Shown here piece after piece: positions 7,749-43,454 of a DNA stretch of 64,000 nucleotides. Location of the stretch: NCBI RefSeq assembly GCF_963921235.1, contig NC_086097.1, positions 53,384,001-53,448,000 on the forward strand, read 5' to 3'. Origin of the DNA: Mobula hypostoma (lineage: Eukaryota). The notes beneath the pieces are model-generated. The model did not search any database and was not told the DNA's origin. It saw only the letters and a list, made by a program, of their open reading frames with translations. Every line of letters begins with the position of its first letter. Positions within the stretch are counted from its first letter, which is position 1. The position numbers were made by a program, and so were the translations under genes.

Positions 7749-8806
7749 TAATCTGGAGATGCGACTAAAAACATCAGTAAAAATCGATTCAGAAAAGAAA
7801 ACCACTTTCCTCCCACCCCCCAAAAAATGTTTCAAAATCATTACTAACAAAGGGACTTGGACCTGAACCTGAACCATTAACTCCATTTCTTTTCCCACAG
7901 ATGGTGCCTGACCTGCTGAGTCCTTCCAGCATTTATTTCTTAAACTTCAGATTTCTAGTCTCTGTAGTTTTTTTGATTAATGAAGCACAATTTATTCAAT
8001 CAGCAGCTAGATAACAATATTAAAAGGAACAAAATTCCTCTGGCCAGCAGATTAATTTGCCATTTTAAGGGACATCTCAGATTGAAATCCTAGGGGATGT
8101 TGATTATTTCTCTTGCAAAAAATGTTCTATTTTTCAAATGATGAAAATGAAGTCACAGGAATACACTGTCTTGTTCTCCAAGATTAGAACTCTTCACTCA
8201 AGTCAGAATAATTCTTTCCACAAGATACTTCAATTTATTCCTTAAAAAGGATGTCCAGATGTGCAAATATTGAGAAAAAGCAACACATCTGACAGATGCT
8301 CTTTCTACATTAATTACAGAAAGACAAGCTGCAAGATCAGCTTGCTATCTGATAGAATATTTTTACATATCATCTTGTAATAGGGTGCATGACAGGCTCA
8401 AGGAAGCTACAGAAGTGAGAGAGGTGTAGAAGATAGTAAAAAGTGTTAAATAAACTCCATAGCAAGTTAAATTATAATTGGAAAATGAGATGGATAAGTG
8501 CAAACTAGTTAGTAACTAATTTAGATCTAAATGTCAAGTTCCAATTTACACCAAGAGGAATGAAGACCAGATGAGCAAGATTTTGAAAACATTATTTAGC
8601 TGGAAGTTGTAATGGGGAACAAGAACCCTGCTAACTTAATAAGCCAAATAGGGTTATGACTACAGACATTTATTTTGAAAATGGCCTGAAAATAAATTAC
8701 CTAAAATTATGAAAACTGTAGATAGCTGTATAGGTCTGCATACAGTTTTATAGTCAGATTAGCTATGATGTTTTTCAAATCCAACTGGTAAAAATTATCC
8801 CTTATA

Positions 8807-10140: not shown

Positions 10141-10277
10141 AAAACACAAGAAAATCTGCAGCTGCTGGAAATCCAAACTAACGCACACAAAATGCTGGGG
10201 GAACTCAGCATGTCAGGCAGCACCTATGGAGAGGAATAAACAGTTGACCTTTCGGGTCGAGACCCTTCTACAGGATT
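10141..10277 (-). repeat. Penelope-type pLTR 3' end fragment with decayed hammerhead core (similar copy at about 321-455)
   Basis: Reverse complement reads cctgtagaagggtctcgacccgaaaggtcaactg...tccataggtgctgcctgac...ccagcattttgtgtg, homologous to 39560-39660. Confidence 0.7.
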
Positions 10278-11585: not shown

Positions 11586-11799
11586 CCGATGGATAGAGGC
11601 TGAGAGGGATATGGACCAAACACAGGTAAATGGGAGTAACTCAGAGGTAGGTAGCTGGGTCAGCATTAACAAGCTGTGCCTAACAGATTGATTCTATCCA
11701 TTATGACTGTACAAATATCTTTCAATTCTGAAGCACAAATATAGTCACTATTCTCTATTTCATTGGAGTTAGAACTGTTTTTTTTATTGTCACACATCA

Positions 11800-19270: not shown

Positions 19271-20124
19271 AATGAACCACTATTGAGAAATACCTTGCTA
19301 AAATAGAAAAGCTTTCAATATAGTTTGATATTTAAGAAATTTTCCTTCTTTCCTTTTTACTTCCAAAAACAATTTCTAAGACGGTTGGGTACACAGATAG
19401 GAATGGTTTCAAAGTGAGACAAGAATGGATAAGCATTTGGTCAGCATGGAACAGATGGGCCAAAGGGGCAGCTCCCATGCTGTCTGACTGAAATAAATTC
19501 AGACATTGGTAACAAATGCACATTTACTTTTGTTAAGTTGCAGTATCCATCTGGTGAATGAGAATTAAACTTGCCATTAAAAGGTCTTAATCTTCACCTT
19601 TTCATGTGCATACCAGTTTAACAAAAAATATAGATTACTACCAATCCCAGCGCCAGTGTAAACTAACTTTTATATGTGTGGGTACTCTTGAAGTATTGTT
19701 CTTGAACACTTTTAAAATGCCATTTCTGACTGTACTTTATAAAATAAACTTTCACTGAATATGCATTTCCTTCTATGCTAACTTGACTTTGAATTAATAA
19801 CATTCATACACCGTTATTTCTCAGTCATTATGCTCAACTTTTTTTATGCTCTAACAGTGAAAATGGATTCTGCTTTCCCCACACCCCAGAAGATTAAACT
19901 AACACACGTTTGGTAAAAAACAGGACAAGAAAATTTGGTACAATTTTTCTTATTTGCCTTAAAGTTAGAAATCCAAGGTGAGCTAGTTAATTGGATTGAA
20001 AGTTGGCTTGGAAGCAGGGAGTAGTGGTGGAAGGATAATTTTCTGATTAAAAGCCCATGACCAGTGGTTAACATAAAAATTATTGCTGGTTCCTTTACTC
20101 ATTGTAAAACTTATGAGTCTTTCC

Positions 20125-22953
20125 CAACCAGAAGCCCTGAATGAACCAAGCGATCTGTAATCTGCTAAGGGCCATATTAGTGGCGTTCAGGTCTAGCGAC
20201 CAAATCAAAAACAAGAGGTCCAGAGCTTTGACCTCTGGAAAGCCATTTCACATGCAGAGTGGCATGGAATCACAGAAAGATGCTCGATATTGTGACAAGG
20301 CCGAATGCCATCTTTTCCTATGAAGTAAAACCAAGAGACATACATGAAAACAGGTTTTCATTCCTGGATGAGCTCAATGCCTTTTATGCTTGCTTTGCCC
20401 AACAAAACATGGAGGCACCTTCATGAACTCCCACAGCTCCTGAGTACCCTGTAATTTCAGTCTCTGAGGCTGATGTGAGAGCATCCTTCGGGAGGGTGAA
20501 CTCATGGAAAACATCTGGTCCAGATAGGGTACCAGGTCGAGTATTAAAGACCTCTGTTGATCATCTGGTTGGAGTGTGCACTGATATCTACAACCTCTCA
20601 CTTCAGCAGTCTGAAGTACCCACCTGCTTCAAGCAGGTCTCAATTATACTCGCACCCAAGGAGGTAGTAAACTGTCTCAATGACTATCGTCCAATTACAG
20701 TTACATCTACAGTGATGAAATGCTTTCAGAGGTTGGGGATAAAACATACCAACTCCTGCCTGAGGAATGGCTTTGATCTGCTCTTATTTGCCTATGATTA
20801 CAACAGGTCGACAGCAGATGCCATTTCATTAGCTCTTCACTCAACCTCGGAGCACCTCAGCAGTGAAGATGCCTACATCAGGATGCTCATCATTGACTAC
20901 AGCTCTGCATGCAACACCATCATCACCTCAAAATGTATCAATAAGCTTCAAGACCTTATAGGCCTCAGTACCACCTTGCGTAACTGGATCCCTGATTTCC
21001 TTACTTGCAGATACCAATCAGTTTGAATTGGCAACAACATCTCCTTCACAATCACCATCAGTACAGGTGCATCCGATGCTGTGTGTTTAGCCTCCTGCTC
21101 TACTCACTTTATACTTATGACTGTGAAGCTAAGAACATCTCCAATGCTATATTTAAGTTTGCTGATGACACCACTGTCTTAGGCTGAATCAAAGGTTGTG
21201 TGATAAGTCAGCATATAGGAGGGAGATTGAAAATCTAGCCAAGTATTGCCACGACAACAACCTCTTACTCAATGTCAGCAAAGTGAAAAAGCTCATTATT
21301 GAGCAGAGGAGGAGGAAATTGGAGGTCCGTGAGCCAGTCCTCATCAAGGGATCAGAGGTGGGAGATGCAATCATTTTTATCATTTCAGAGGATCTTTCTT
21401 GGGTCCATTACATAAGTGCAATTACAAAGAAAGGGCAGGAGCATCTGTATTTTCTTAGATGTTTGCAAAGATTCGGCATGTCATCTAAAACTTTTTGACA
21501 AACTTCTATAGTGGAGAGTATGTTGACTGGTTGCATCACAGCACGGTGTGGAAACACTAATGGCCTTAAACGGAAAATCCTACAAAAAGTAATGATACAG
21601 CCCAATCTATCATAGGTAAAGCCCTCCCACTGTTGAGCAGATCCATCTACAAGGAGCGCTGTCGTAGGAAAGCAGCACCCAAAGACCTCCACGCACCCTT
21701 TTCACTGCTACCATCAGGAAGAAGGTACAGGAGCCTCAGGACCCACACCATGAGGTTCAGGAACAGTTATTACCCCTAAACCATCAGGCTCTTGAAAGAG
21801 AGGGGATACCTTCACTCACCCCGTTACTAAACTGTTCCCACAACCTGTGGACTCACTTTCAAGGAGTGAAAGTGCTATTTACTGTTCTTTTTTTCTTCTG
21901 TATTTGCACCATTTGTTATCTTTTGCACGTTAGTTGTTTGCCTGTCTTGTTGTGTGTGGTGTTTCATTGATTATATTGTGTTTCTATGTATTTACTGTGG
22001 ATTTCCTGGAAGAAAAAGAATCTCAGGGTAGTGTGACAAGAATACACATAGATTAAGATGTTAGCTGTCCTGTGTGATCAGCAGTTGGTCTGCCACCTGT
22101 CTTCAGGAGAGAGAGAGAGATAAGGAAAACAATGGAGCAGCATTTGGAGATGTGTAATGAAGGGACGGGGGGGGGGGGGGGGAGAGAGAGAGTAACAGAA
22201 GGCGGGAGCTGTCGAGAGCGGCTCCCCCTTTGAACCCTGAACTGTCTGAAGTGATGGACAGGCGATACCCCAGCAGGGGGATAAAAAGGGACAGGTTCGC
22301 TAAGGCAGGACACACACGACACCCGAGGTAACAAGACCCTGGAAGCGGTGCGTCTCTCACAAGTCGGTGGAAAATACTGGGCCATAAATGCACAGGGTGG
22401 AAAGGCACGATTGGCGGGAACCTGGTGTGTGTCCACCCTTGCCTGGGTGCCAGGTTCAGTGCAGGGAAACAATCGTATCTGGAAACGGAGGGGTCACGGT
22501 CGGTGACCTCAGATGACATCACAAAGGACTCGCCCGACAGCTGACTGCGAAGGTCTGTGTGTGGAAGCCGTTTGAATATTCATTCGTTTTTGCTCTCTCT
22601 CTCCTTCCCCCACACTGTCCAACTCCCACGGCAGCGATTACTGCGAACTGAACTGAACCTTGCGTCACTTTGAAACTGGTCATTTGCCCCTAGACAACGA
22701 TAGAGCTTGATTGATCCTGTTATCTGAATTCTCTGTACATGTATGTTTATCATTGCCGAACTGTTGCATTCATTATCCTTTTGGTTAGAGTACTGTGTTG
22801 CTTGTTTCTTTAATAAAACTTTCTTAGTTCTAGTAATCCAGACTCCAACTGAGTGATCCATTTCTGCTGGTTTGGCAACCCAGTTACGGGGTACGCAACA
22901 GTAGTATGTAGTGACATACATGTACTTCGTTAATAAATTTATCTTGAACTTTC
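20125..22953 (+). mobile_element. Rex1/Babar LINE (degenerate, about 2 kb) with a solo LTR in its 3' UTR
   Basis: ORFs with GPDRVPGRVLK, NDYRPI, IDYSSACNTI and FKFADDTT; the 3' UTR resumes after 22904 (tatgtagtgacatacatgtactt..aataaa). Confidence 0.87.
22032..22900 (+). mobile_element. Solo LTR (869 bp)
   Basis: TG...CA termini (TGTGACA...GCAACA); 4-bp TSD GTAG at 22028-22031 and 22901-22904; TATA-like gataaaaa near 22280; AATAAA near 22812; many CpGs retained. Confidence 0.88.
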
Positions 22954-22989
22954 AACCTTGAACATTAATGACTTGGATGTGAATGTAGG

Positions 22990-23792
22990 AGGAATGACAC
23001 AGAAACTGGTGAAGTTGTGGATAGAAAGGAAGTTGTCTAAGGCTACAGCAGGATACAGCCTTGTAGTTGGAAAGCTGGATGGAATATTGGTAGATGGGAT
23101 TTAATCCCAACAAGTACAAAGTGATCGACGTTGGAAAGACAAATAAGGGTATGGCACATGTCATTAATGGCAGGCCACTCAGTCATGTTGATGTACAGAG
23201 GGATCCAGGAGTCCTAAGTTCATTTTTGCCTAAAAATGGCTGCACAGGAAGAGAGGGTGATGAAGAAATACTAACCTTAAAAGAGCAGGGCATAGAACTT
23301 AAAGAGTTGTAACTTTACAAACACACTGATTACACCGTACTTAGAGTTTTCTGTGCAGTTGTAGTCGACACACTACATGAAGAGTGTGACTGCAGGAAGT
23401 TCCAAGGTGATTGACAGGATGGAGAGGGATTAGATTGGCTATGCTCATTTTCCCTGTAGTGAATGAGATTGAAGGGTGACTGATAAAAATGTATAAGATT
23501 ATGAGAGGTATAAATAGGCAAGATAGTTTTAAACATAAGGTAGGAGATCTAAATGGAATGAGGGATAATTTTCTTTCTCTTCTTCCACTCCCCCCCCCCC
23601 ACCCCATATAGACTAGTTGGTATTTGGATTGTGCTGCCACTGGAAATAATTGCTAAGTTTAAGAGGCATTTAGTCAGACACTTGAATAGGCAAAGCATTG
23701 GAGGATGCAGGGCAAATGGGATGAGTGTAGATGGCCAAACAGATCTACACTGCCATAGTGGGCTAAAAGGCCCATTTCTATGCTGTACAACT
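22990..23792 (+). mobile_element. Degraded CR1 LINE 3' part
   Basis: MGFNPNKYKVI, VQRDPGV, FKRHLVRHLN and a CR1 3' UTR. Confidence 0.7.
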
Positions 23793-23851: not shown

Positions 23852-23976
23852 CAAACAACAGGAATTCTGCAGATGCTGGAAATTCAAGCAACACACATCA
23901 AAGTTGCTGGTGAACGCAGCAGGCCAAGCAGCTGCTTAGCCTGCTGCGTTCACCAGCAATTTTGATGTGTGTTGCT
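23852..23976. mobile_element. Penelope-type pLTR-derived fold-back insertion
   Basis: 14-bp TSD AGTATAAATTCACA (23838-23851, 23977-23990); 90-bp spacerless palindrome at 23887-23976 with 2 mismatches. Confidence 0.85.
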
Positions 23977-28140: not shown

Positions 28141-28474
28141 AGATTGACTGGAGAGTTTAGTCCCAAACCCTCGATGAAATACATTCCAGAAATTATAACA
28201 ACTCTGATTGAATGCCTTAAATGTTACATTTGTAATTCAGGTACCCTTAGAGTCAAGCAGGCGAGTTATCGCATTAAGCAAAAAAAGACAAGTACTAAGC
28301 CGGCCAAGCAGTATCAGTGGGGGCAAAGAGATAGACCTAAATCAGTTTTTAAAAATTGCTCCGGAGTTCAGCATCGGCAGGTTTAACGGAGGCCATGTAC
28401 TGCTTACTGCACATTTGAGAGGCACATTTTTCTGTAACAAGCAAGTGGAGTTCATAAGGAGAAGCAATACTTAC

Positions 28475-28997
28475 GAAGCCAATACACGGGATAACATTCC
28501 TTGTCTATCACGTTGACTTCATAGAGACCGCCGCGGACACACACGGTGTCGAGAGCGGGTCTGGCTGGATCTGACGAGCCAGTCTTGGCGACAAATTCGG
28601 TGTATTCTCTGTACATGAGCTCGATGCGCAGCGAGTCGTAGCCGATGAAGGGTTTCCAGGTCTTGCGATCCTCCTTGTAAAACCAGCGCACCTCCTCGGA
28701 GCCCAGCTCCCCCACCACGTCGTAGCGGTGCCGGATACTGCCCGAGTGACTGCGCTTGTGGGTGACCGAGATGTCGCTCTCGCTGAAGTCCACCTCCCCG
28801 CTGTCCAGGTAGGGCAGCGACGCCGCCGAGTCGGCCGTGAACAGGTCGAAGTTGGTGCCGCTCAGCGAGTGATACATTTCCAGGCCGAGACGACCCGAGC
28901 GCCGGCGCTGATGAGGCCGAGGTGAACCGGACGACATGTGCGGAGACGGCGGCTTGTCGCCGTGCTGGGGTGGTGGTGGTGGCGGCGGCGGCTCCAT
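28475..28997 (-). CDS. DDHD1: DDHD1 (phosphatidic acid-preferring phospholipase A1) coding exon 1
   Basis: ATG at 28997; translation contains RHRYDVVGELGSEEVRWFYKEDRKTWKPFIGYDSLRIE and VCVRGGLYEV..ECYPVYW, matching the vertebrate DDHD1 N-terminal region; GTAAGT donor at 28474-28469; 523 nt, phase 1. Confidence 0.95.
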
Positions 28998-29570
28998 CCT
29001 GCTCCTCAGACACTAAGCGACGTGCGGAGGCTGAGCCCTAGCCTACCTCGCTGCCCGTCATGAAGGCGGTGGCGGTGCCGTGCCGTGCCGGGGTGGGGTG
29101 GGAGGGGCAGAGCCGAGTAGCCCGGGGTGGGAGGAGTGCACTGCGCCGCCCTGCCCTGCCCTGCCCTGCCCTGCCCGTCCGGCTTTCCCACTCGGAGGCT
29201 GACACCGCTCCTCTGCTTGGGCTTCCTGTGCGCTCAGCCCGCCTCCGCCTGCGCCTGCAGAAACCGCCCCAGCTCCATCATACCCCCGCTCCTGCCCGCG
29301 TCACAACGCGCCGAACGTCAGTGCCTGGAGACCACAAACGGCGCGGACAAGCGGGCCGAGGCTCCCGGGCCCGACTCGCCGTGAGGCCGTGGCTGGGCTG
29401 GGGGTAACGGCCGAACTAGTGTCGGTTATGCCGCTGTGAGGCCGGTCCGGCCCGCAGTGGATGAATTGGGGCGCAGGGGGACCTCCAGCACACACCTTCT
29501 CCAGAATTCCTGCTGACTTAACTCGCCCGTGCGTTCTGACCGGCGCTGGCTCCCGTTTTCCCACCGTCTA
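28500..29570 (-). promoter_or_regulatory. CpG island / DDHD1 promoter and 5' UTR
   Basis: Abrupt GC- and CpG-rich block in AT-rich DNA covering exon 1 and about 570 bp upstream; GC box (ccgccc near 29265), NRF1-like tgcgcctgc near 29250, CRE-like TGACGT on the minus strand near 29315. The TSS cannot be placed from sequence. Confidence 0.85.
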
Positions 29571-31535: not shown

Positions 31536-33829
31536 GATTCCCCAACCATGGGGGAAAAGACTGAGCGCATTCTCATTATTATGTGCCTCATGACTTTGTA
31601 CACCTCTGTAAGATCACCTCATGCTCCAGGTGAAAAGAAAGTGCTAGCCTAACCAACCACTGCCTATAACTTGGCCCCTTAAGTCCTGGCAACACATCTC
31701 AAAAGAAAACAGTCTCAGCCCTTCAGTCTGTCCGTGTAATTGTAGTCACTCATTTACGCTGGACTATCCCCAAGGGCTCCCTCATTCTTTCTATGGAAGT
31801 CCATGAAAGAGTTTGAGAGGCAACCAGAAGTGAATGTAATACGGCACTCGAGGCTGGGCTAGGTCTTATAAAGGTTCAGCATTGCTTTCCTGTATTTACA
31901 CGCACAGCACTGTTGATCAAGTACAAGAATGTGTATGCCTTATTGAACACTTACTCAACTTTGCCTGTCTATTCTTTAACCCCAGGTCTCTCTTCCCCCA
32001 TATCTATATTATAGCTTATTCTATCAAAATGTAACACTTCATCTTTCTCTTCATTAAACTTAATCTGTGAGATGTCATTCTATTCTATAAACTGCTTTGG
32101 ATATTGCTGCAATTTTACGCTTCCTTGCCGTTGAAATTGTAGATTGCAACCCATGGCTGGATTATGGATATACATGAAAGAAAGTAACAGACTTTACACT
32201 GATACCTGGGGAAATGTGGCTCTTCACCTTCTTCCACATTGGGAAAATTAACCATTCAGGACCACCCTCTCCTATCTATTACTTAGCCAATGTTATATTG
32301 ATGATATTGTATTGCGTTCTGAAGAAGGGTCTTGACCTAAAGCATTGACTGCCCATTTCCCTTCATAGATGCTGCTGAGTTTTTCCATTTATTTGTTGTT
32401 CCAGATTTCCGGAATCTGCAGTCTCTCTTGAGTTTCCATTGAATCCATGCTTCAATGTCCCTTTTATCCCAAGCGCTTCAACTTTGCTAATAAGTTACAC
32501 CTTATTAGAGGCCTCCTGTATAACATACAGAGTTTGCATTATGCTTACCAACTATGTTATACATAAAAATTTATATTGGTTAAACATAGTTTACCCGTTA
32601 TAACTCTATGCTGGCTTGCCTTAATTAAACTTTTTCTCCAGTTTTATTGCAGAGCAAAGTTTCTAGAAGTTTTTTTAACAATATTTTAAGGGGAAACAAA
32701 TAATATTCACCATACTGCAGGCTTCTGGCAGCATCCCGTATTCAAAGAGCACTGAAATATTGTTAGTGTCCCTGCAGTTTCCACCTGCACTTCCCTCAAA
32801 GCCCTGGGATTCATCTTATTCCATAACAACAAATTTCCTACTTTAGAAAAGTTTACTGAACTTATTTAATACTTACATGCTATTAGTTTCTGATAAATCT
32901 TGTTTCTGTATCTCCTTCAGATTCACTTTGAAGTCAAAGACACCATAATTTTGAAATGGTAATTTTGAGCTAACCTTCATCGTGTGCTGAACCAACTCGT
33001 TCTCCTATCACCTATTTATAAAAATCTTGCCTTCTTTATAAGGTTTTGCAGCTTTTATTGGATAACATCAGATCTCTGAAGTCTTCTCAGCATTATAGAT
33101 GTCCAATATGTTTAAAACTATGGACACTTTAAAATTTGTCATGGAGTAGGTTAGAGCTCCTCAGGCCTTCATGGCTTTTGGGTGTTTCTTCCAAAATCTT
33201 CTCTTCATGTATAATCAATAATAATGAATACTGTTGCATATTTAATATTTAATGCTTCAGTAATATTTGTGTAATATTCTTAATATGTTATTGATGAAAC
33301 ATTATTTGTTTAAATAATTATGGGTTATATATAAAAAATAAGAGAATTGCATACATCATGACATACATGCGTGCCTTGCGTAAAGTAATTTTGAATTTGA
33401 ATTTATTTAAATTTTACATCCATTCCACAACGCAAGGGAGTAAAAATCTTTGCCTTTTGACTCCATCGCAATGTACGGACATGTGATTTTATAAGTCTAA
33501 TGGCTTGTAGAAAGAAGGTGTTCCATAGCCTGTGGGTCCTGGCTTTAATGCTGCGGTACCATTTGTAAAAACACGAAGTTAGAATCACATTTACGATTCC
33601 CATCTTTTCCTTTTAATTAGTTTAATGTTTTGGAGTTACAAAACATAACAGTGGCAATGAGATATTTTAAAAATGAACCCGAGGCAACTACCTACCTATG
33701 AGACATCCGAATTTAAAAAAGCACAACGACATGTTCGAATTTAAAAACGTAGCGCACTATGTGCAGAATCAGTCAGGTAAAAAAAAGACAAAAAACGTAA
33801 AAATTTACAGGTTTATGAACAGTGAGTAC

Positions 33830-34012
33830 AGGAGAAAATCTGCAGATCCTGGAAATCCAAAGCAACACACACGAAATGCGGGAGAAACGCAGCAGCCCAG
33901 GCAGCATCTATGGAAAAGAGTAAACAGTGAACATTTTGGGCCAGCCCGAAAAGTCGACTGTTTACTCTTTTCCGTAGATGCTGCCTGGTCTGCTGAGTTC
34001 CTCCAGAATTTT
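33830..34012. mobile_element. Penelope-type pLTR fold-back insertion in the Gypsy 5' leader
   Basis: 8-bp TSD GTGAGTAC (33822-33829, 34013-34020); inverted arms caggcagcatctatggaaaagagtaaacagt / actgtttactcttttccgtagatgctgcctg. Confidence 0.8.
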
Positions 34013-35248
34013 GTGAGTACTGGGTGATAATAATCATTAAAAAAAACAGAAATGGCTGGCGACATTGGGAAGATCGACTTGTTACACACCAGATAACTGG
34101 ATTTTATGTACTGAACGAATTGAACAGTATTTTAAAGCAAATGGAATAGCAATATAAAACAAGTACTAATTTTGCTGAGTGCATTAGGTTTAAAGGTTTA
34201 CAGTTTGCTTTGAAGTTTAACTGCTCCAACCAAACCAGCCGAAGTGAGCCTTGCCTATATTGTGAAAGTACTGCAGCAACATTTAGACCAAAACCGTTGT
34301 TGATTGCAGAATGCTTTAGGTTTCATAAATGGAATCAAAAGGAATGGAAGTCCATTGAGCATACATGGCTGAATAGAAGAGCTATCTAAGCATTGTCAGT
34401 ACAGTAATGATGCACCCAGAGATCATGTAGTTCGTAGAATCTTAAAAGAAAGCATTCAAAAACAGCTCCTAACTGAAGCACAACTTAAATTTAAAAGAGC
34501 AGCTGAAATAGCTTTATCAATGGAAACCACAGCGAGAGATGCAATTGAGTTGCAGTCAGGAATGAAAGTGAGCATGAACAAAATTGCAATGTCTAAACAG
34601 AAACCGGCCTGGCTGAGCTAATTGTATTACCATTGCGGCAGAAGCTCACATACACTATACCAATGCAGATTTAAAGGTAAAACTTGTAGAAAATGCAATA
34701 AAGTAGGACACATACAAAGGCATTGCAGGCAGACAAAAATAAACGGAAGGCATAGAAAAAGCTAAAACGTAAAGTTGCAGTTTCAAAAAGAGCTCAAATC
34801 TGCATGCTGGTGATGAAAAAGTTGATAATGATGAGAGTAACACAGGGCTGTATAGCCTTGAGATTTACAATGTGAAAAGTAACTATAGTCAAGCAACATG
34901 GCTTACACCAGAGATGAATGGCAAATTAATTAAAATGGAATTGTATATTGGCTCAGCTCTTTCAACCATTTCACAAAATTAGTTTGAATGGACTTCAATG
35001 ATACTGAACTGAAGCCTGTAGATACCCAACTAAAAACTTAAACTGGAGAAAAGATAACTCCTGTGGGAATGACATTCATAACAGTGAAATATAACAACCA
35101 ACAAACCATATTGGGCTTGTATATGGATAAAAAACAGGAGGGCCAGCAATGGGGGGACTTGAGTAGCTGAGACTCCAACTTGATTGGAGATCCATCAACT
35201 ATCTCCATCCTGTACACCATGAACCGTTGCCCAACAGATGGTAAATGG

Positions 35249-35812
35249 GTGTTGGCGCCAACCCCTGTGCCTCTGGTTGGAAAGCACATTGAACCAAGGA
35301 AGGACCACGCTGCTCAGAGGAATCATGAAAGTGACGAAAGCAGTGGTGTAACTACAACAGTTTTTGTAGGCAACATATCCAAAAAAATGCTCCTGATATG
35401 TTAATCAGGCAGTTGCTTGCGAAATGTGGCTTGGTTTTAAGCTGGAAGAGAGTTCAAGAAGGTTCAGGAAAGTTGCAAGCATTCATCTTTTCTGAGTATA
35501 AGGAACCAGAATTTACCAAGCTTGCATTAAGATTATTGCATGAACTTCAAGTGGAACTGCCTGTAAAAGTAGTTACAAAGACCAAAGCCCAGCTGGATGA
35601 ATGGAAGGCCAAAAAGAAAGGAGTCAATGAAGATGTGAAAACAGAGGATTCATCGGATGATGTTGTGAATGAGCAAACCAAGTGGGGGGTGGGGGAATCA
35701 GATCATAAAGGGAGTAATGGTAGGATCAACAAGTGAATTCTCCAGTGAACTAAATGCACCCTCCCAAGACCTTGATGCACCAGCTCGAAGATGGAAAAGG
35801 AAGGAGAAGAAA
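35249..35812 (+). pseudogene. RBM25: Processed (intronless) RBM25 fragment covering the RRM region
   Basis: VLAPTPVPLVGKH..RKDH..TTTVFVGNIS / MLIRQLLAKCGLVLSWKRVQEGSGKLQAF..EYKEPE..ALRLLHELQV..KTKAQLDEWKAKKK / QIIKG..SSELNAPSQD..KEKK match RBM25; frameshifts near 35387 and 35690; no introns and no poly(A). Confidence 0.93.
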
Positions 35813-36312
35813 AGTGTCCAGAGCTGTCAGGAGAATTTCCTGCAGTCTCAGAATGAACTCCTACAACCACCACAGAGGAGGACCCAGAACCTGAGATTGT
35901 CTTTACAGCCACAGGTCTCACCTGCCGAGCAGAGTGACCTGCCCCTCACCCCCAGTCAGGAAAGGTAGGAGTTGCATACTTGCATCAGTTTGGACTCTCA
36001 TCTTTTTATTGCAATTAGTTTTTATGTTTTGAAGTAACAAAACATTACAATCATGCTACCGTGTGATGTGTGCATGTCTCGCTTAAAGTAAAAACACAAA
36101 CAGGTGTTTTACTTTTAATTAGTTTAATGTTTTGGAGTTACAAATACTAGTAATCTATTTAATCAAGAGCAAGCCATTATTTCATAGCCAAATTAATGGA
36201 TTACATTTCATTTTTACAATATTTAGAATTATTCTTCTTTAGATAAATATTCCGGAATCAGAATCAGGTTTAATATTACTGGCACTTGTTGTGAAATTTG
36301 GAATTTTAAGTA

Positions 36313-37587
36313 CTGTGGATTTCGGTTAATTGGTCCATCAGTGAATCAGGAAAGCCACTTATTTGGGACAACTCTTAAAGATCAACAACAAATTGAGAAA
36401 GTAGTCAGGATTTCCATCATTTATTTGGGACACTCTGCCGCTTAATTGGGACTGGAGACCATCATTGAACAGTTTCTAACTAGTGTTAGTCACATAAACG
36501 TGTAGCTATTAGACATTACACGATGCTTAGAGTGAACAGTTTTTAAATAGTGTCAGTTGTATGTGTCTGTGTTCAAAACGCATGATTTGTCACTGACAGT
36601 TGGTGAGAAATAAGTAGTAAGCCAATTTAGAATAGTTTAGCTCACTATGGTTTCAAGCAATCAGGCTTGGAAATGCCAGAAATGGCCAGGTGTATAAAAG
36701 AAACTATTTCAGCACTTTAACAAGGTAGCAACTATAAAGACTTTGAAGGTATCTACAATCATCTTGAATGTTATAATGTAAGTGAGAATTTGGAGGATGC
36801 AATTGTCGATAGCAATGTATGAAGGCAGTCCATTATCTACACTAGGTGTCTGTCATATCTGACAATGACAGTGAAATCTGTTTGGGAGAATTTTTAAACT
36901 GGAAAAGCTGGGATAGGTTTACTCTCTTGACCTTGGAAGTCCAGGTCTGGTGGTATGAATAATCATCACAAACTGGGTTCTCCCATGGTTGCAGTGGATA
37001 ACTATGACTTCTTCTTTGCCTTATCATGTTCTTCACTCTCCACAGAGCATTGCAGAACAGCCCTCTTGGCTGTTGGGTCTCACAGCTGATCTCATCCACC
37101 CAGTTCACCGGAGCTGACTTCACCTGCTAGGACAGGCATGTCCCTATTTCACTGGGGTATGAGGCCCACCAGCTACCCTCACCTGGTGTTCCAGGGTGTG
37201 GCCACTGTCACATGCGAGCAGCTATTTGGAGCAACAGCTGAGGTGTCCAGTGGGGACCAAAGGTGAGTGAGCTGCTGCAGAGTAGACTAGACAGGCCCCC
37301 TCACTAAAGGCGCTACCCCTTCCTGGACACTCATACACGGCAGCATACACTGGATGAATTCCTTTGTCGATAATTATGCAGAACTAATACACAGTTTTAT
37401 AGTACTGTAATAGTATTGATAGTCTCCTAATTTGTTCTTTATTTCATAATTTGCTACTCGGTTAAACAGTACTTTGTCTTTTTTATACCTTTTTAACTAT
37501 TTCCATGAAACTGGCTAATTGGGGTGGCCGTTTATTTGGGTCAAAATGTACTGGTCCCGATGTGTCCCAATTAAGTTGAATCCAATG
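36313..37587. mobile_element. Old pogo/Tigger-like non-autonomous element with an internal insertion (about 36890-37340)
   Basis: Imperfect TIRs ctgtggatttcggttaattgg / ccaattaagttgaatccaatg flanked by TA; repeated subterminal ttaattgggac motifs. Confidence 0.62.
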
Positions 37588-39243: not shown

Positions 39244-39671
39244 AACATTGACTTCTCAGACGCTAATGCCCCACCTCCCCCTTGTACCCCATCCGTTATT
39301 TATTTATATACACACATTCTTTTTCTCTCTCTCCTTTTTCTCCCTCTGCCCCCCTCACCATACCCCTTGCCCATCCTCTGGTTTTTCCCCCCTTCCCCTT
39401 TTCTTTCTCCGTAGGCCTCCTGTCCCATGATCCTCTCATATCCCTTTTGCCAATCAACTTTCCAGCTCTTGGCTCCATCCCTCCCCCTCCTGTCTTCTCC
39501 TATCATTTTGGAACTCCCCCTCCCCCTCCCACTTTCAAATCTCTTACTAGCTCTTCTTTCAGTTGGTCCTGACGAAGGGTCTCGGTCCGAAACGTCAACT
39601 GTACCTCTTCCTAGAGATGCTGCCTGGCCTGCTGCATTCACCAGCAACTTTTATGTGTGTTCCTCGTTTTT
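39244..39671 (+). mobile_element. 5'-truncated Penelope-like element (ORF end plus pseudo-LTR)
   Basis: 15-bp TSD with one mismatch, GGTTTA(G/A)TTATCTTG (39229-39243, 39672-39686); starts with an NIDFS remnant resembling PLE ORF ends, then a pyrimidine-rich tract and a hammerhead motif. Confidence 0.8.
39560..39601 (+). ncRNA. Minimal type I hammerhead ribozyme motif (Penelope-associated, partly decayed)
   Basis: CTGACGA (39569-39575), extra A, stem II GGGT-CTCG-GTCC, GAAA (39589-39592), short palindromic ACGT in place of helix III, GTC cleavage triplet ending at 39596. Confidence 0.65.
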
Positions 39672-42361: not shown

Positions 42362-43167
42362 TTGGTCAACTCAAACATGATGAAGAGGACCACGATCACA
42401 AGCTGTCAAATCTTAAGTATCCTGCTGCTTGTTAGTCACTTTATTTCATTTATTATAGGTACTTCTTAAATGTAATGATGTTCGTATTTTATGGTACTGC
42501 AACTGTTGTCTTTGTCTGTTCAATCTCCTGCATCTTGTAGGAGATACAGAAACTAGGACTGCAAGACCAAAAAACAGCTTCTTCCTGAGGGCAATTGTGA
42601 AGCTGAATAATGCTGCACCCCAGCTTGACAGTGGCCTTTGAGTGTTATGGACTATCGAAGTTACTTGCTGCCTGTAAATATGGGAATTTTTATTTGTTTA
42701 TTTATTTTTAATTAAGCCATCCCACATCCATTGTAAATATCTGTTTTGCACGGACTGGAGTAGTGGCGCAATCTCGTTTTGAGCAATTCTATTCTCTCAG
42801 CTAATGAGGATGGTATTCCACAGCACAGTCAGTGTAATCTGTTCTCAGAGTCAAATTCTTACCCTTGTATCTGGAAATTCCTGAGATTTGTGGGTTTCCA
42901 ATTCTCCAAAATGATTATGCTTTTTTCATTGTACTTGACTCCTTGTTTTAACTAAAAGAACCTCATAACAACATTTATGTCAAATATGAACCTTGCAAAG
43001 GCTGACAAACAGACTGAAAAATAGTTACTACAGATGCAATAAAAGCTGATAATTAATTTGCGTAAAGAATATAAGGAATGATCCTCTGATCAGGCATTTA
43101 CAACGTTAAGCTTCATTCTTGGAATTGGATGTCTGGAAAGCACAAACCTACGGTAATGCTCTTCCAC

Positions 43168-43343
43168 AAAAAATGCTGGTGAATGCAGCAGGCCAGACAG
43201 CATCAATAGGAAGAAGTTCAGTCGATGTTTCGGGCCCGAAACATTGACTGTACTTCTTCCTATAGATACTGCCTGACCTGCTGCGTTCGCCAGCATTTTT
43301 TGTGTGTGTTGCTTGAATTTCCAGCATCTGCAGATTTCCTCGT
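43168..43343. mobile_element. Penelope-type pLTR fold-back insertion
   Basis: 15-bp TSD GTAATGCTCTTCCAC (43153-43167, 43344-43358); palindrome centred on GTTTCGGG|CCCGAAAC at 43234/43235 with arms of about 68 bp. Confidence 0.87.
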
Positions 43344-43454
43344 GTAATGCTCTTCCACTTATTTGCAGCCTTGCACCTTTCGTCATGAGTACCTGATAGT
43401 GAAATCAAGAAAAGTGCAAGTGGAGTTAGAATAAAAATAATCAAACCTAGAACC

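What the first reader, a model, noticed from the sequence alone, without database searches (positions are those of the whole stretch)
33232..36142. Gypsy (Mag-like) retrotransposon that has swapped its pol core for a spliced RBM25 mRNA fragment
Seen: LTR, PBS-like site, gag with two zinc knuckles and protease run to about 35200; RBM25 coding sequence follows (35249-35812); then a Pro/Glu/Thr-rich tail and LTR ends; the whole unit sits between a 5-bp AATAC TSD. The RBM25 piece has no poly(A) and no TSD of its own, and RT, RNaseH and the integrase core are missing exactly where it lies. Known: this part of RBM25 spans several exons in human, and LTR elements can capture co-packaged host mRNA by RT template switching. 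Inference: the chimera arose by double template switching and integrated as one unit, mobilised in trans; GAGAAGAAA at about 35804-35812 is a candidate microhomology. It may belong to an undescribed gene-carrying LTR family. This copy is decayed (frameshifts, stops).
Basis: partly seen in the sequence, partly recalled or inferred. Interest (0 to 1): 0.8.

Follow-up and report, generated by a model that had tools for sequence, protein, structure and literature searches.

The report
Gypsy retrotransposon family carrying RBM25 exons
This is one decayed copy of a jumping gene whose copying enzymes are replaced by four spliced exons of the host splicing-factor gene RBM25, likely picked up during reverse transcription and then likely spread by intact relatives: a known kind of gene capture, seen here in many copies.

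Summary
Confirmed, with corrections. A K02A2.6-like Ty3/Gypsy element (33232-36144) keeps its 5' LTR, PBS-like site, gag, protease and integrase tail. About 2.5 kb of pol is replaced by RBM25 sequence (35249-35812). Fish rbm25 genomic loci show this is four exons joined without three introns. There is no poly(A) and no own TSD. The 9-nt 3' microhomology is supported: a fish rbm25 gene has it, and non-chimeric contigs join the window exactly there. Dozens of diverged contigs in three related organisms carry the same cargo start, so this is a family copy, not the capture event. Corrections: the 3' LTR is broken and doubled, and the TSD overlaps its truncated end. The cargo also begins exactly at an exon start, behind about 40 unassigned bases, so that join looks spliced and the 5' switch point is unproven. 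The mechanism is published (Tan et al. 2016). The scan has already noted this RBM25 family elsewhere in this genome (32 notes fit 'RBM25'). I found no paper describing the family. No whole genome, parental gene or long reads were available.

The parts
33227..33231 (.). left target-site duplication AATAC
33232..33650 (+). 5' LTR (TGTTG...TAACA)
   Evidence: family contigs end the LTR the same way (table 7)
33389..33564 (.). later insertion in the 5' LTR, flanked by a GTAA duplication; LINE 3'-end identity is recalled, not tested
   Evidence: absent from the 3' LTR piece
33652..33661 (+). PBS-like site; tRNA-Ser type is recalled, not tested
33827..34018 (.). later insertion: palindromic MITE-like repeat (75-nt arms, 84% complementary) with at least six other matches in the window
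34052..34762 (+). decayed gag with two zinc knuckles (34625-34666, 34685-34726)
34779..35205 (+). decayed gag-protease spacer, aspartic protease and start of the protease-RT linker
35206..35248 (+). unassigned linker; 35210-35248 is 39 nt with an ATG (35219) in frame with RBM25; either a host exon or the element's own linker
35249..35421 (+). RBM25 exon VLVPT...RQLLA (173 nt; 171 in fish locus L002; human exon 4 by recall)
35422..35479 (+). RBM25 next exon, 58 nt (58 in L001 and L002)
35480..35631 (+). RBM25 next exon, 152 nt (161 in L001; three codons missing in this copy)
35632..35812 (+). RBM25 next exon, cut 6 nt before its donor (186 nt in L001)
35804..35812 (+). GAGAAGAAA, shared by RBM25 and the element: 3' switch microhomology
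   Evidence: same word at L002 2921-2929; 4 contigs of run X23 join at 35804 with other upstream letters
35804..35964 (+). integrase C-terminal Pro/Glu/Thr-rich tail, cut before the terminal RYP motif; out of frame with the cargo
35966..36049 (+). first partial 3' LTR end (81% to the 5' LTR end)
36050..36144 (+). second partial 3' LTR, partner of the 5' LTR (37/38 at the end), last bases missing
36143..36147 (.). right target-site duplication AATAC (first two letters also fit the LTR)

Best explanation
This is a decayed copy of a non-autonomous Ty3/Gypsy family in which about 2.5 kb of pol is replaced by four spliced RBM25 exons, likely captured once by reverse-transcriptase template switching and then likely copied in trans by intact helpers. 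Steps: (1, inferred) a spliced RBM25 transcript was co-packaged with an intact element RNA. (2, supported) Minus-strand synthesis left the element at GAGAAGAAA just inside the integrase tail and continued on the mRNA. (3, inferred, about 55-60%) It returned to the element near 35203-35210, upstream of a 39-nt host exon spliced to the first recognisable RBM25 exon. (4, shown for the cargo start, supported for both junctions) The chimera kept LTRs, PBS and gag and multiplied into many copies shared by related organisms. (5, shown) This copy then gained two insertions, lost PPT and U3, and decayed. The cargo is out of frame with both flanks, so it is likely a passenger.
For: Intron loss: fish loci L001/L002 have GT-AG introns at the three positions where the window runs on, and exon sizes 171/58/161/186 match 173/58/152/181. 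24 of 178 fetched RBM25 proteins read into the intron after RQLLA, among them P0273, the best hit of the window's exon. Replacement, not insertion: no pol-core hit among 122 homologues; about 800-860 aa expected. No L1 hallmarks. 3' switch: L002 has the same word; X23 contigs join at 35804 with upstream letters resembling the homologues' integrase C-terminus. Family: 20,077-23,750 contigs laid per DNA run over 1.5 kb (this count includes LTR and an unrelated flank repeat), half under 90% alike. 72-85 contigs per run carry sister letters at 35242-35247. Six listed non-identical contigs (X6 17-18, X9 25-28; 40-51 differences) bridge 35248|35249. Contigs join protease to RBM25 (X6 35126>35300, 35170>35557) and RBM25 to the tail (X23 35500>35803, side 79; X3 35768>35849). 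X1 contig 1 is identical to the window over 35091-35315. For a host linker: a 13-aa insert starting LYT at the same place in Puntigrus RBM25 (2 of 176 proteins), and RNA run X22 gains depth from 35208 on but not over the protease (weak hint).
Against: The parental gene of this organism and an intact helper were not seen; intron positions come from bony fish and tetrapods. No 5' microhomology was found. The linker also resembles the element's own protease-RT linker: a T[EQ] motif lies 17-18 residues after DW in 16 of 99 homologues, and the window has a Thr codon at that spot plus 1 nt. No listed contig identical to the window spans the 3' junction. The six bridging contigs do not reach 31 letters into the protease. 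The 3' LTR is rearranged, and only three TSD letters are independent of the LTR. The RNA depth step is unclear in X23, and contig depth is a poor expression measure.
Confidence: 0.82

Rival explanations
1. Retrovirus-style transduction: an element sitting in sense in an RBM25 intron was read through, a cryptic donor at 35248 in its own protease-RT linker spliced to the RBM25 acceptor, and a single template switch at GAGAAGAAA restored the 3' end. Everything after capture is as in the best explanation.
For: The cargo starts exactly at an exon start (L002 785; 8 of 178 proteins show an acceptor before VLVPT), chance about 1-3%. Sister contigs read CAG before it. Weak alignments of gag-pol homologues extend to 35214-35235, and T[EQ] spacing fits. 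Chimeric read-through transcripts as the route of oncogene capture: PMC515179 passages.
Against: It needs a family-wide +1 nt to fit the homologue spacing; no indel reaches 40% in 35130-35376. The RNA depth step in X22 starts at 35208, not 35249. The 13-aa LYT insert in Puntigrus favours a host exon.
Confidence: 0.27
2. A LINE-made RBM25 processed pseudogene landed in a Gypsy copy, and a later deletion removed pol, the poly(A) and the TSD; that locus was then amplified.
For: LINE-type ORFs are abundant in the window (identity read by eye). Deletions also leave microhomology.
Against: No poly(A) or TSD. The cargo lacks RBM25's 3' 70%. It needs two deletions that end at an exon start and at a shared 9-mer.
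Confidence: 0.06
3. The linker is a piece of a second host RNA, or the back-spliced end of a circular RBM25 RNA.
For: Multi-gene chimeras are described in Tan et al. 2016 (section 5). Earlier notes report two-gene cargo and circRNA capture in such families (unchecked).
Against: The exons are in normal order. A phmmer query including the linker found only RBM25 exon matches and two repetitive proteins among 23 hits; this is weak for 13 residues.
Confidence: 0.1
4. Assembly artefact.
For: The region is repetitive, and no long reads were available.
Against: An identical contig spans the 5' junction, an X6 contig spans the 3' LTR end and flank with 7 differences, and many diverged contigs share the structure.
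Confidence: 0.01

Closest known systems
LTR-mediated retrocopies / pseudo-LTR retrotransposons of animals (Tan et al. 2016, PMC5131818; abstract and sections 5, 6, 10 read)
   Same: Partial spliced mRNA replaces part of the internal ORF; microsimilarity at a switch point (median 6 bp there, 9 here); no poly(A) or own TSD; secondary retroposition with shared switch points.
   Different: Their amplified cases have a few insertion sites; here there are dozens to over a hundred distinct diverged contigs per position in three organisms. The 5' end sits on an exon start. Cartilaginous fishes were not among the species they list.
Maize Bs1 (as described in Tan et al. 2016 section 10; not read at source)
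   Same: Host exonic sequence between LTRs; all copies share switch points.
   Different: Bs1 has 1-5 copies and three parental genes; here one recognised parent, and the cargo is out of frame with gag-protease.
K02A2.6-like Ty3/Gypsy elements of fishes and amphibians (Mag-like)
   Same: Gag 37-55% identical, two knuckles, protease, Pro/Glu/Thr integrase tail.
   Different: RT, RNase H and integrase core are absent; the element cannot move on its own.
Retroviral oncogene transduction (PMC515179, 7 passages read; two-step splice model otherwise recalled)
   Same: Defective element with intronless host cargo that needs a helper; one junction at a host exon start.
   Different: No env, no in-frame fusion, no sign of selected cargo function; a donor inside the element is not shown.

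Membership tests
LTR-mediated retrocopy (Tan et al. 2016) | internal host sequence flanked by a discontinuous LTR element, ORF replaced rather than interrupted | tested here: met
   about 2.5 kb of pol missing at the cargo
LTR-mediated retrocopy (Tan et al. 2016) | intron loss relative to the parental gene | tested here: met
   three introns absent versus fish loci L001/L002; a proxy, the organism's own gene was not seen
LTR-mediated retrocopy (Tan et al. 2016) | microsimilarity at the 3' switch | tested here: met
   GAGAAGAAA in L002 and as the start of the match of 4 non-chimeric contigs
LTR-mediated retrocopy (Tan et al. 2016) | microsimilarity at the 5' switch | tested here: inconclusive
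   junction not located; 35206-35248 unassigned
LTR-mediated retrocopy (Tan et al. 2016) | no poly(A), no TSD of the retrocopy | tested here: met
LTR-mediated retrocopy (Tan et al. 2016) | both LTRs present, one TSD round the unit | tested here: met
LTR-mediated retrocopy (Tan et al. 2016) | secondary amplification with shared switch points | tested here: met
   diverged contigs share the cargo start and link the cargo to protease and tail; separate TSDs of other copies not seen
LTR-mediated retrocopy (Tan et al. 2016) | co-transcription from the LTR | not testable with these tools
   only contigs of runs guessed to be RNA were available
Ty3/Gypsy Mag clade | two CCHC arrays in gag | tested here: met
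   feature per PMC2577118 passages, shared with Micropia/Mdg3, so not diagnostic
Ty3/Gypsy Mag clade | RT/RNase H/integrase phylogeny within Mag | not testable with these tools
   domains absent from this copy; no named Mag references on hand
Ty3/Gypsy | domain order PR-RT-RH-IN | tested here: met
   in the closest homologues P0303 and P0128; this copy keeps the PR start and the IN tail
LINE-made processed pseudogene | poly(A) tail, own TSD, intact mRNA 3' end | tested here: not met
Retrovirus-type splice transduction | 5' junction at a host splice acceptor | tested here: met
   35249 = exon start in L002 and 8 of 178 proteins
Retrovirus-type splice transduction | donor site lies within the element's own sequence | tested here: inconclusive
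   for; against

The most novel reading that the evidence does not exclude
The family was born by retrovirus-style splice transduction, or it preserves an otherwise unknown RBM25 exon with its own in-frame ATG. Either way it is one of several host-cargo families built on one Gypsy chassis, which would make this fish lineage a natural, repeated model of oncogene-type capture by an env-less retrotransposon, with hundreds of copies able at birth to encode or silence a truncated RRM-only RBM25.
Probability: 0.25. Interest if true: 0.68.

Novelty: new member of a known kind. Interest (0 to 1): 0.45.

Why it matters
The mechanism is known, but published animal examples are young and low-copy. An old, high-copy vertebrate family with readable junctions lets one ask how cargo is captured (two template switches versus splice plus one switch) and whether cargo helps or merely rides. 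It also shows that apparent bursts of 'processed pseudogenes' can be one LTR family rather than many LINE events. The VGP retrocopy pipeline requires a junction counted from the mRNA 3' end and filters repeat-overlapping candidates (PMC13320880 passages), so it would likely miss such families.

Tried and rejected
No whole genome is held, so there is no copy count, no parental locus and no sister TSDs. The look-up of sequencing runs: no RNA holder listed; the best DNA holder shares 0.36 of the words; 12 small-share runs, of which only X9 was laid. An exact 22-letter linker pattern found 0 matches in metagenome contigs. The RRM piece in viral contigs: 77 candidates, 0 confirmed. Look-ups of earlier findings by sequence, by relatives and by 'alternative exon' words were empty. 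No protein with the linker joined to RBM25 was found among 23 phmmer hits or 176 fetched RBM25 proteins, apart from the LYT insert in P0026/P0244. No named cartilaginous-fish RBM25 or gag-pol came back. blastn of the linker against L001-L016 showed no linker hit in the visible part of a cut output. Rfam: 0 hits. Rejected: the 5' LTR ending at about 33640; 35970 as the start of a 3' LTR (it aligns to the LTR's end part); an in-frame Gag-PR-RBM25 fusion (67 nt from the DW motif to the exon start, i.e. +1); summed contig depth as a copy number. Diverged exon 3 as the linker was considered (a three-residue PVH match, out of frame) and judged unlikely. L001 lacks the intron before the first exon, so that boundary rests on L002 and the proteins. 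Literature searches listed no paper on an RBM25-carrying LTR family or on this RBM25 exon; the library lacks most subscription papers, and supplements were not read.
Full report
Scope. No whole genome was held. The evidence is the window, protein databases, fish rbm25 loci found in metagenome contigs, and contigs of public runs from related organisms laid on the window. That the host is a cartilaginous fish comes from earlier scan notes and my recall of the repeats; I did not test it.

Anatomy. The unit begins TGTTG at 33232 after AATAC. The 5' LTR runs to 33650 and is followed by a PBS-like site. In each DNA run 266-320 contigs continue beyond 36144 as the 5' LTR does, which fixes the LTR end. 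Gag starts at 34052 and, with the protease, matches K02A2.6-like polyproteins (E 1e-52 to 1e-69), whose full-length members have the Gypsy order PR-RT-RH-IN. None of 122 homologues hits RT, RNase H or integrase core between 35233 and 36150. Full-length ones have about 800-860 residues between the post-protease DW motif and the integrase RRHxDQL motif (10 of 16 listed; P0319 and P0322 duplicate P0232's cluster, and the other six are shorter). About 2.5 kb is thus replaced by about 0.6 kb. A Pro/Glu/Thr tail follows. The 3' side lacks PPT and U3 and has two partial LTR ends; the second matches the 5' LTR at 37/38. AATAC recurs at 36143-36147 (chance about 0.0015 at one offset). Two of its letters overlap the truncated LTR; a 10-nt slippage would reconcile this (inferred). 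An X6 contig shares this end with 7 differences and no gap. Two later insertions lie at 33389-33564 and 33827-34018.

Cargo. 35249-35812 is RBM25 (221 proteins at E<=0.001; residues about 53-241), including the RRM but not the RE-rich or PWI parts. Fish loci L001 and L002 show exons of 171, 58, 161 and 186 nt with GT-AG introns. The window has 173, 58, 152 and 181 nt joined directly. Twenty-four of 178 RBM25 proteins read into the intron after RQLLA, including P0273, the best hit of the window's first exon. There is no poly(A) and no own TSD. The frame breaks near 35380-35388, 35555 and 35683-35700 are places where many sister contigs differ from the window, so they look private to this copy.

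3' junction. RBM25 homology ends at 35812, 6 nt before the exon's donor. L002 has GAGAAGAAA at that point. Four contigs of run X23 start matching at 35804 and carry other letters upstream that resemble the homologues' integrase C-terminus. The 9-nt overlap therefore belongs to both parents. It is purine-rich: about 0.05 such matches are expected between two 50-nt purine-rich windows, so it is supportive, not overwhelming.

5' junction. Recognisable RBM25 starts exactly at an exon start (L002 785; 8 of 178 proteins show an acceptor before VLVPT), chance about 1-3%. Most sister contigs read CAG just before it, and there is no pyrimidine tract, so this looks like a spliced join. The 43 nt upstream are unassigned. 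For a host exon: 35210-35248 is 39 nt with an in-frame ATG; Puntigrus RBM25 has a 13-residue insert starting LYT at the same place (P0026, P0244; 2 of 176, one species); and run X22 shows extra depth from 35208 to about 35675 but not over the protease. The last is a weak hint: the tool warns that depth is a poor expression measure, X23 is unclear, and an expressed sister copy could explain it. For the element's own linker: weak homologue alignments extend to 35214-35235, and a T[EQ] motif falls 17-18 residues after DW in 16 of 99 homologues, matching a Thr codon here at +1 nt. I weigh these about 55-60% host exon, 27% element donor, the rest other. The cargo is out of frame with the protease (+1) and with the tail.

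Family. On 34900-36400, runs of three organisms laid 20,077, 23,165 and 23,750 contigs, half under 90% alike; these totals include LTR and an unrelated flank repeat. Of the 32 pieces listed, six non-identical ones (40-51 differences) and one identical one bridge 35248|35249 by 31 or more letters. Contigs with internal deletions join protease to RBM25 and RBM25 to the tail. No listed identical contig spans the 3' junction. At 94 places in 766 bases, 40% or more of contigs differ from the window, mostly by transitions: an old, neutrally decayed copy. I cannot give a copy number; earlier notes claim 500 to about 2000, untested here.

Known and new. Tan et al. 2016 (PMC5131818; abstract and sections 5, 6, 10 read) describe this structure, the microsimilarity, the double switch model and secondary amplification. 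The locus meets the testable features except the 5' microsimilarity. Two CCHC arrays fit Mag but also Micropia/Mdg3 (PMC2577118, 9 passages), so 'Mag-like' stays a lead. Seven searches listed no paper on this family. The scan has met it repeatedly in this genome (32 notes fit 'RBM25'), with other cargo families reported on similar elements. Verdict: a real, new member of a known kind, unusual in scale. The useful addition here is the exon-exact 5' join and the unassigned linker, which make the capture route directly testable.

Noticed in passing
window 28452-29012, - strand: GC-rich first coding exon with a WWE_2 hit (E 1.5e-5); looks like phospholipase DDHD1 by recall. The element lies about 4.2 kb upstream of it, pointing away.
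   Followed up: partly
window 33389-33564: 176-nt insertion in the 5' LTR with a GTAA duplication; resembles a LINE 3' end on the - strand by recall.
   Followed up: partly
window 33827-34018: Palindromic MITE-like repeat with further copies near 334-439, 7888-7934, 10149-10256, 23860-23932, 39584-39664 and 43165-43346.
   Followed up: no
window 35966-36144: Two partial LTR ends in tandem, 81% and 97% like the 5' LTR end; an unexplained rearrangement or nested LTR fragment.
   Followed up: partly
proteins P0026/P0244 (Puntigrus RBM25): 13-residue insert between exon 3 and the VLVPT exon, starting LYT like the window's linker; possible undescribed alternative exon or acceptor.
   Followed up: partly
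L001 406-624: This fish rbm25 paralogue lacks the intron before VLVPT that L002 has.
   Followed up: no
run X22 on window 35208-35675: Extra contig depth over linker and cargo but not over the protease; single contigs with loose ends at 35267, 35651 and 35808 look like diverged sister copies.
   Followed up: partly
protein P0124 (Metynnis, 652 aa): A predicted gag-protease protein joined to the integrase tail with only 196 aa between, i.e. another pol-deleted element of this group.
   Followed up: no
window 36226-36400 and ORFs at 11745, 20427, 41558, 50239, 51488, 59280, 62822: High-copy repeat right of the element and LINE-type ORF fragments (read by eye).
   Followed up: no
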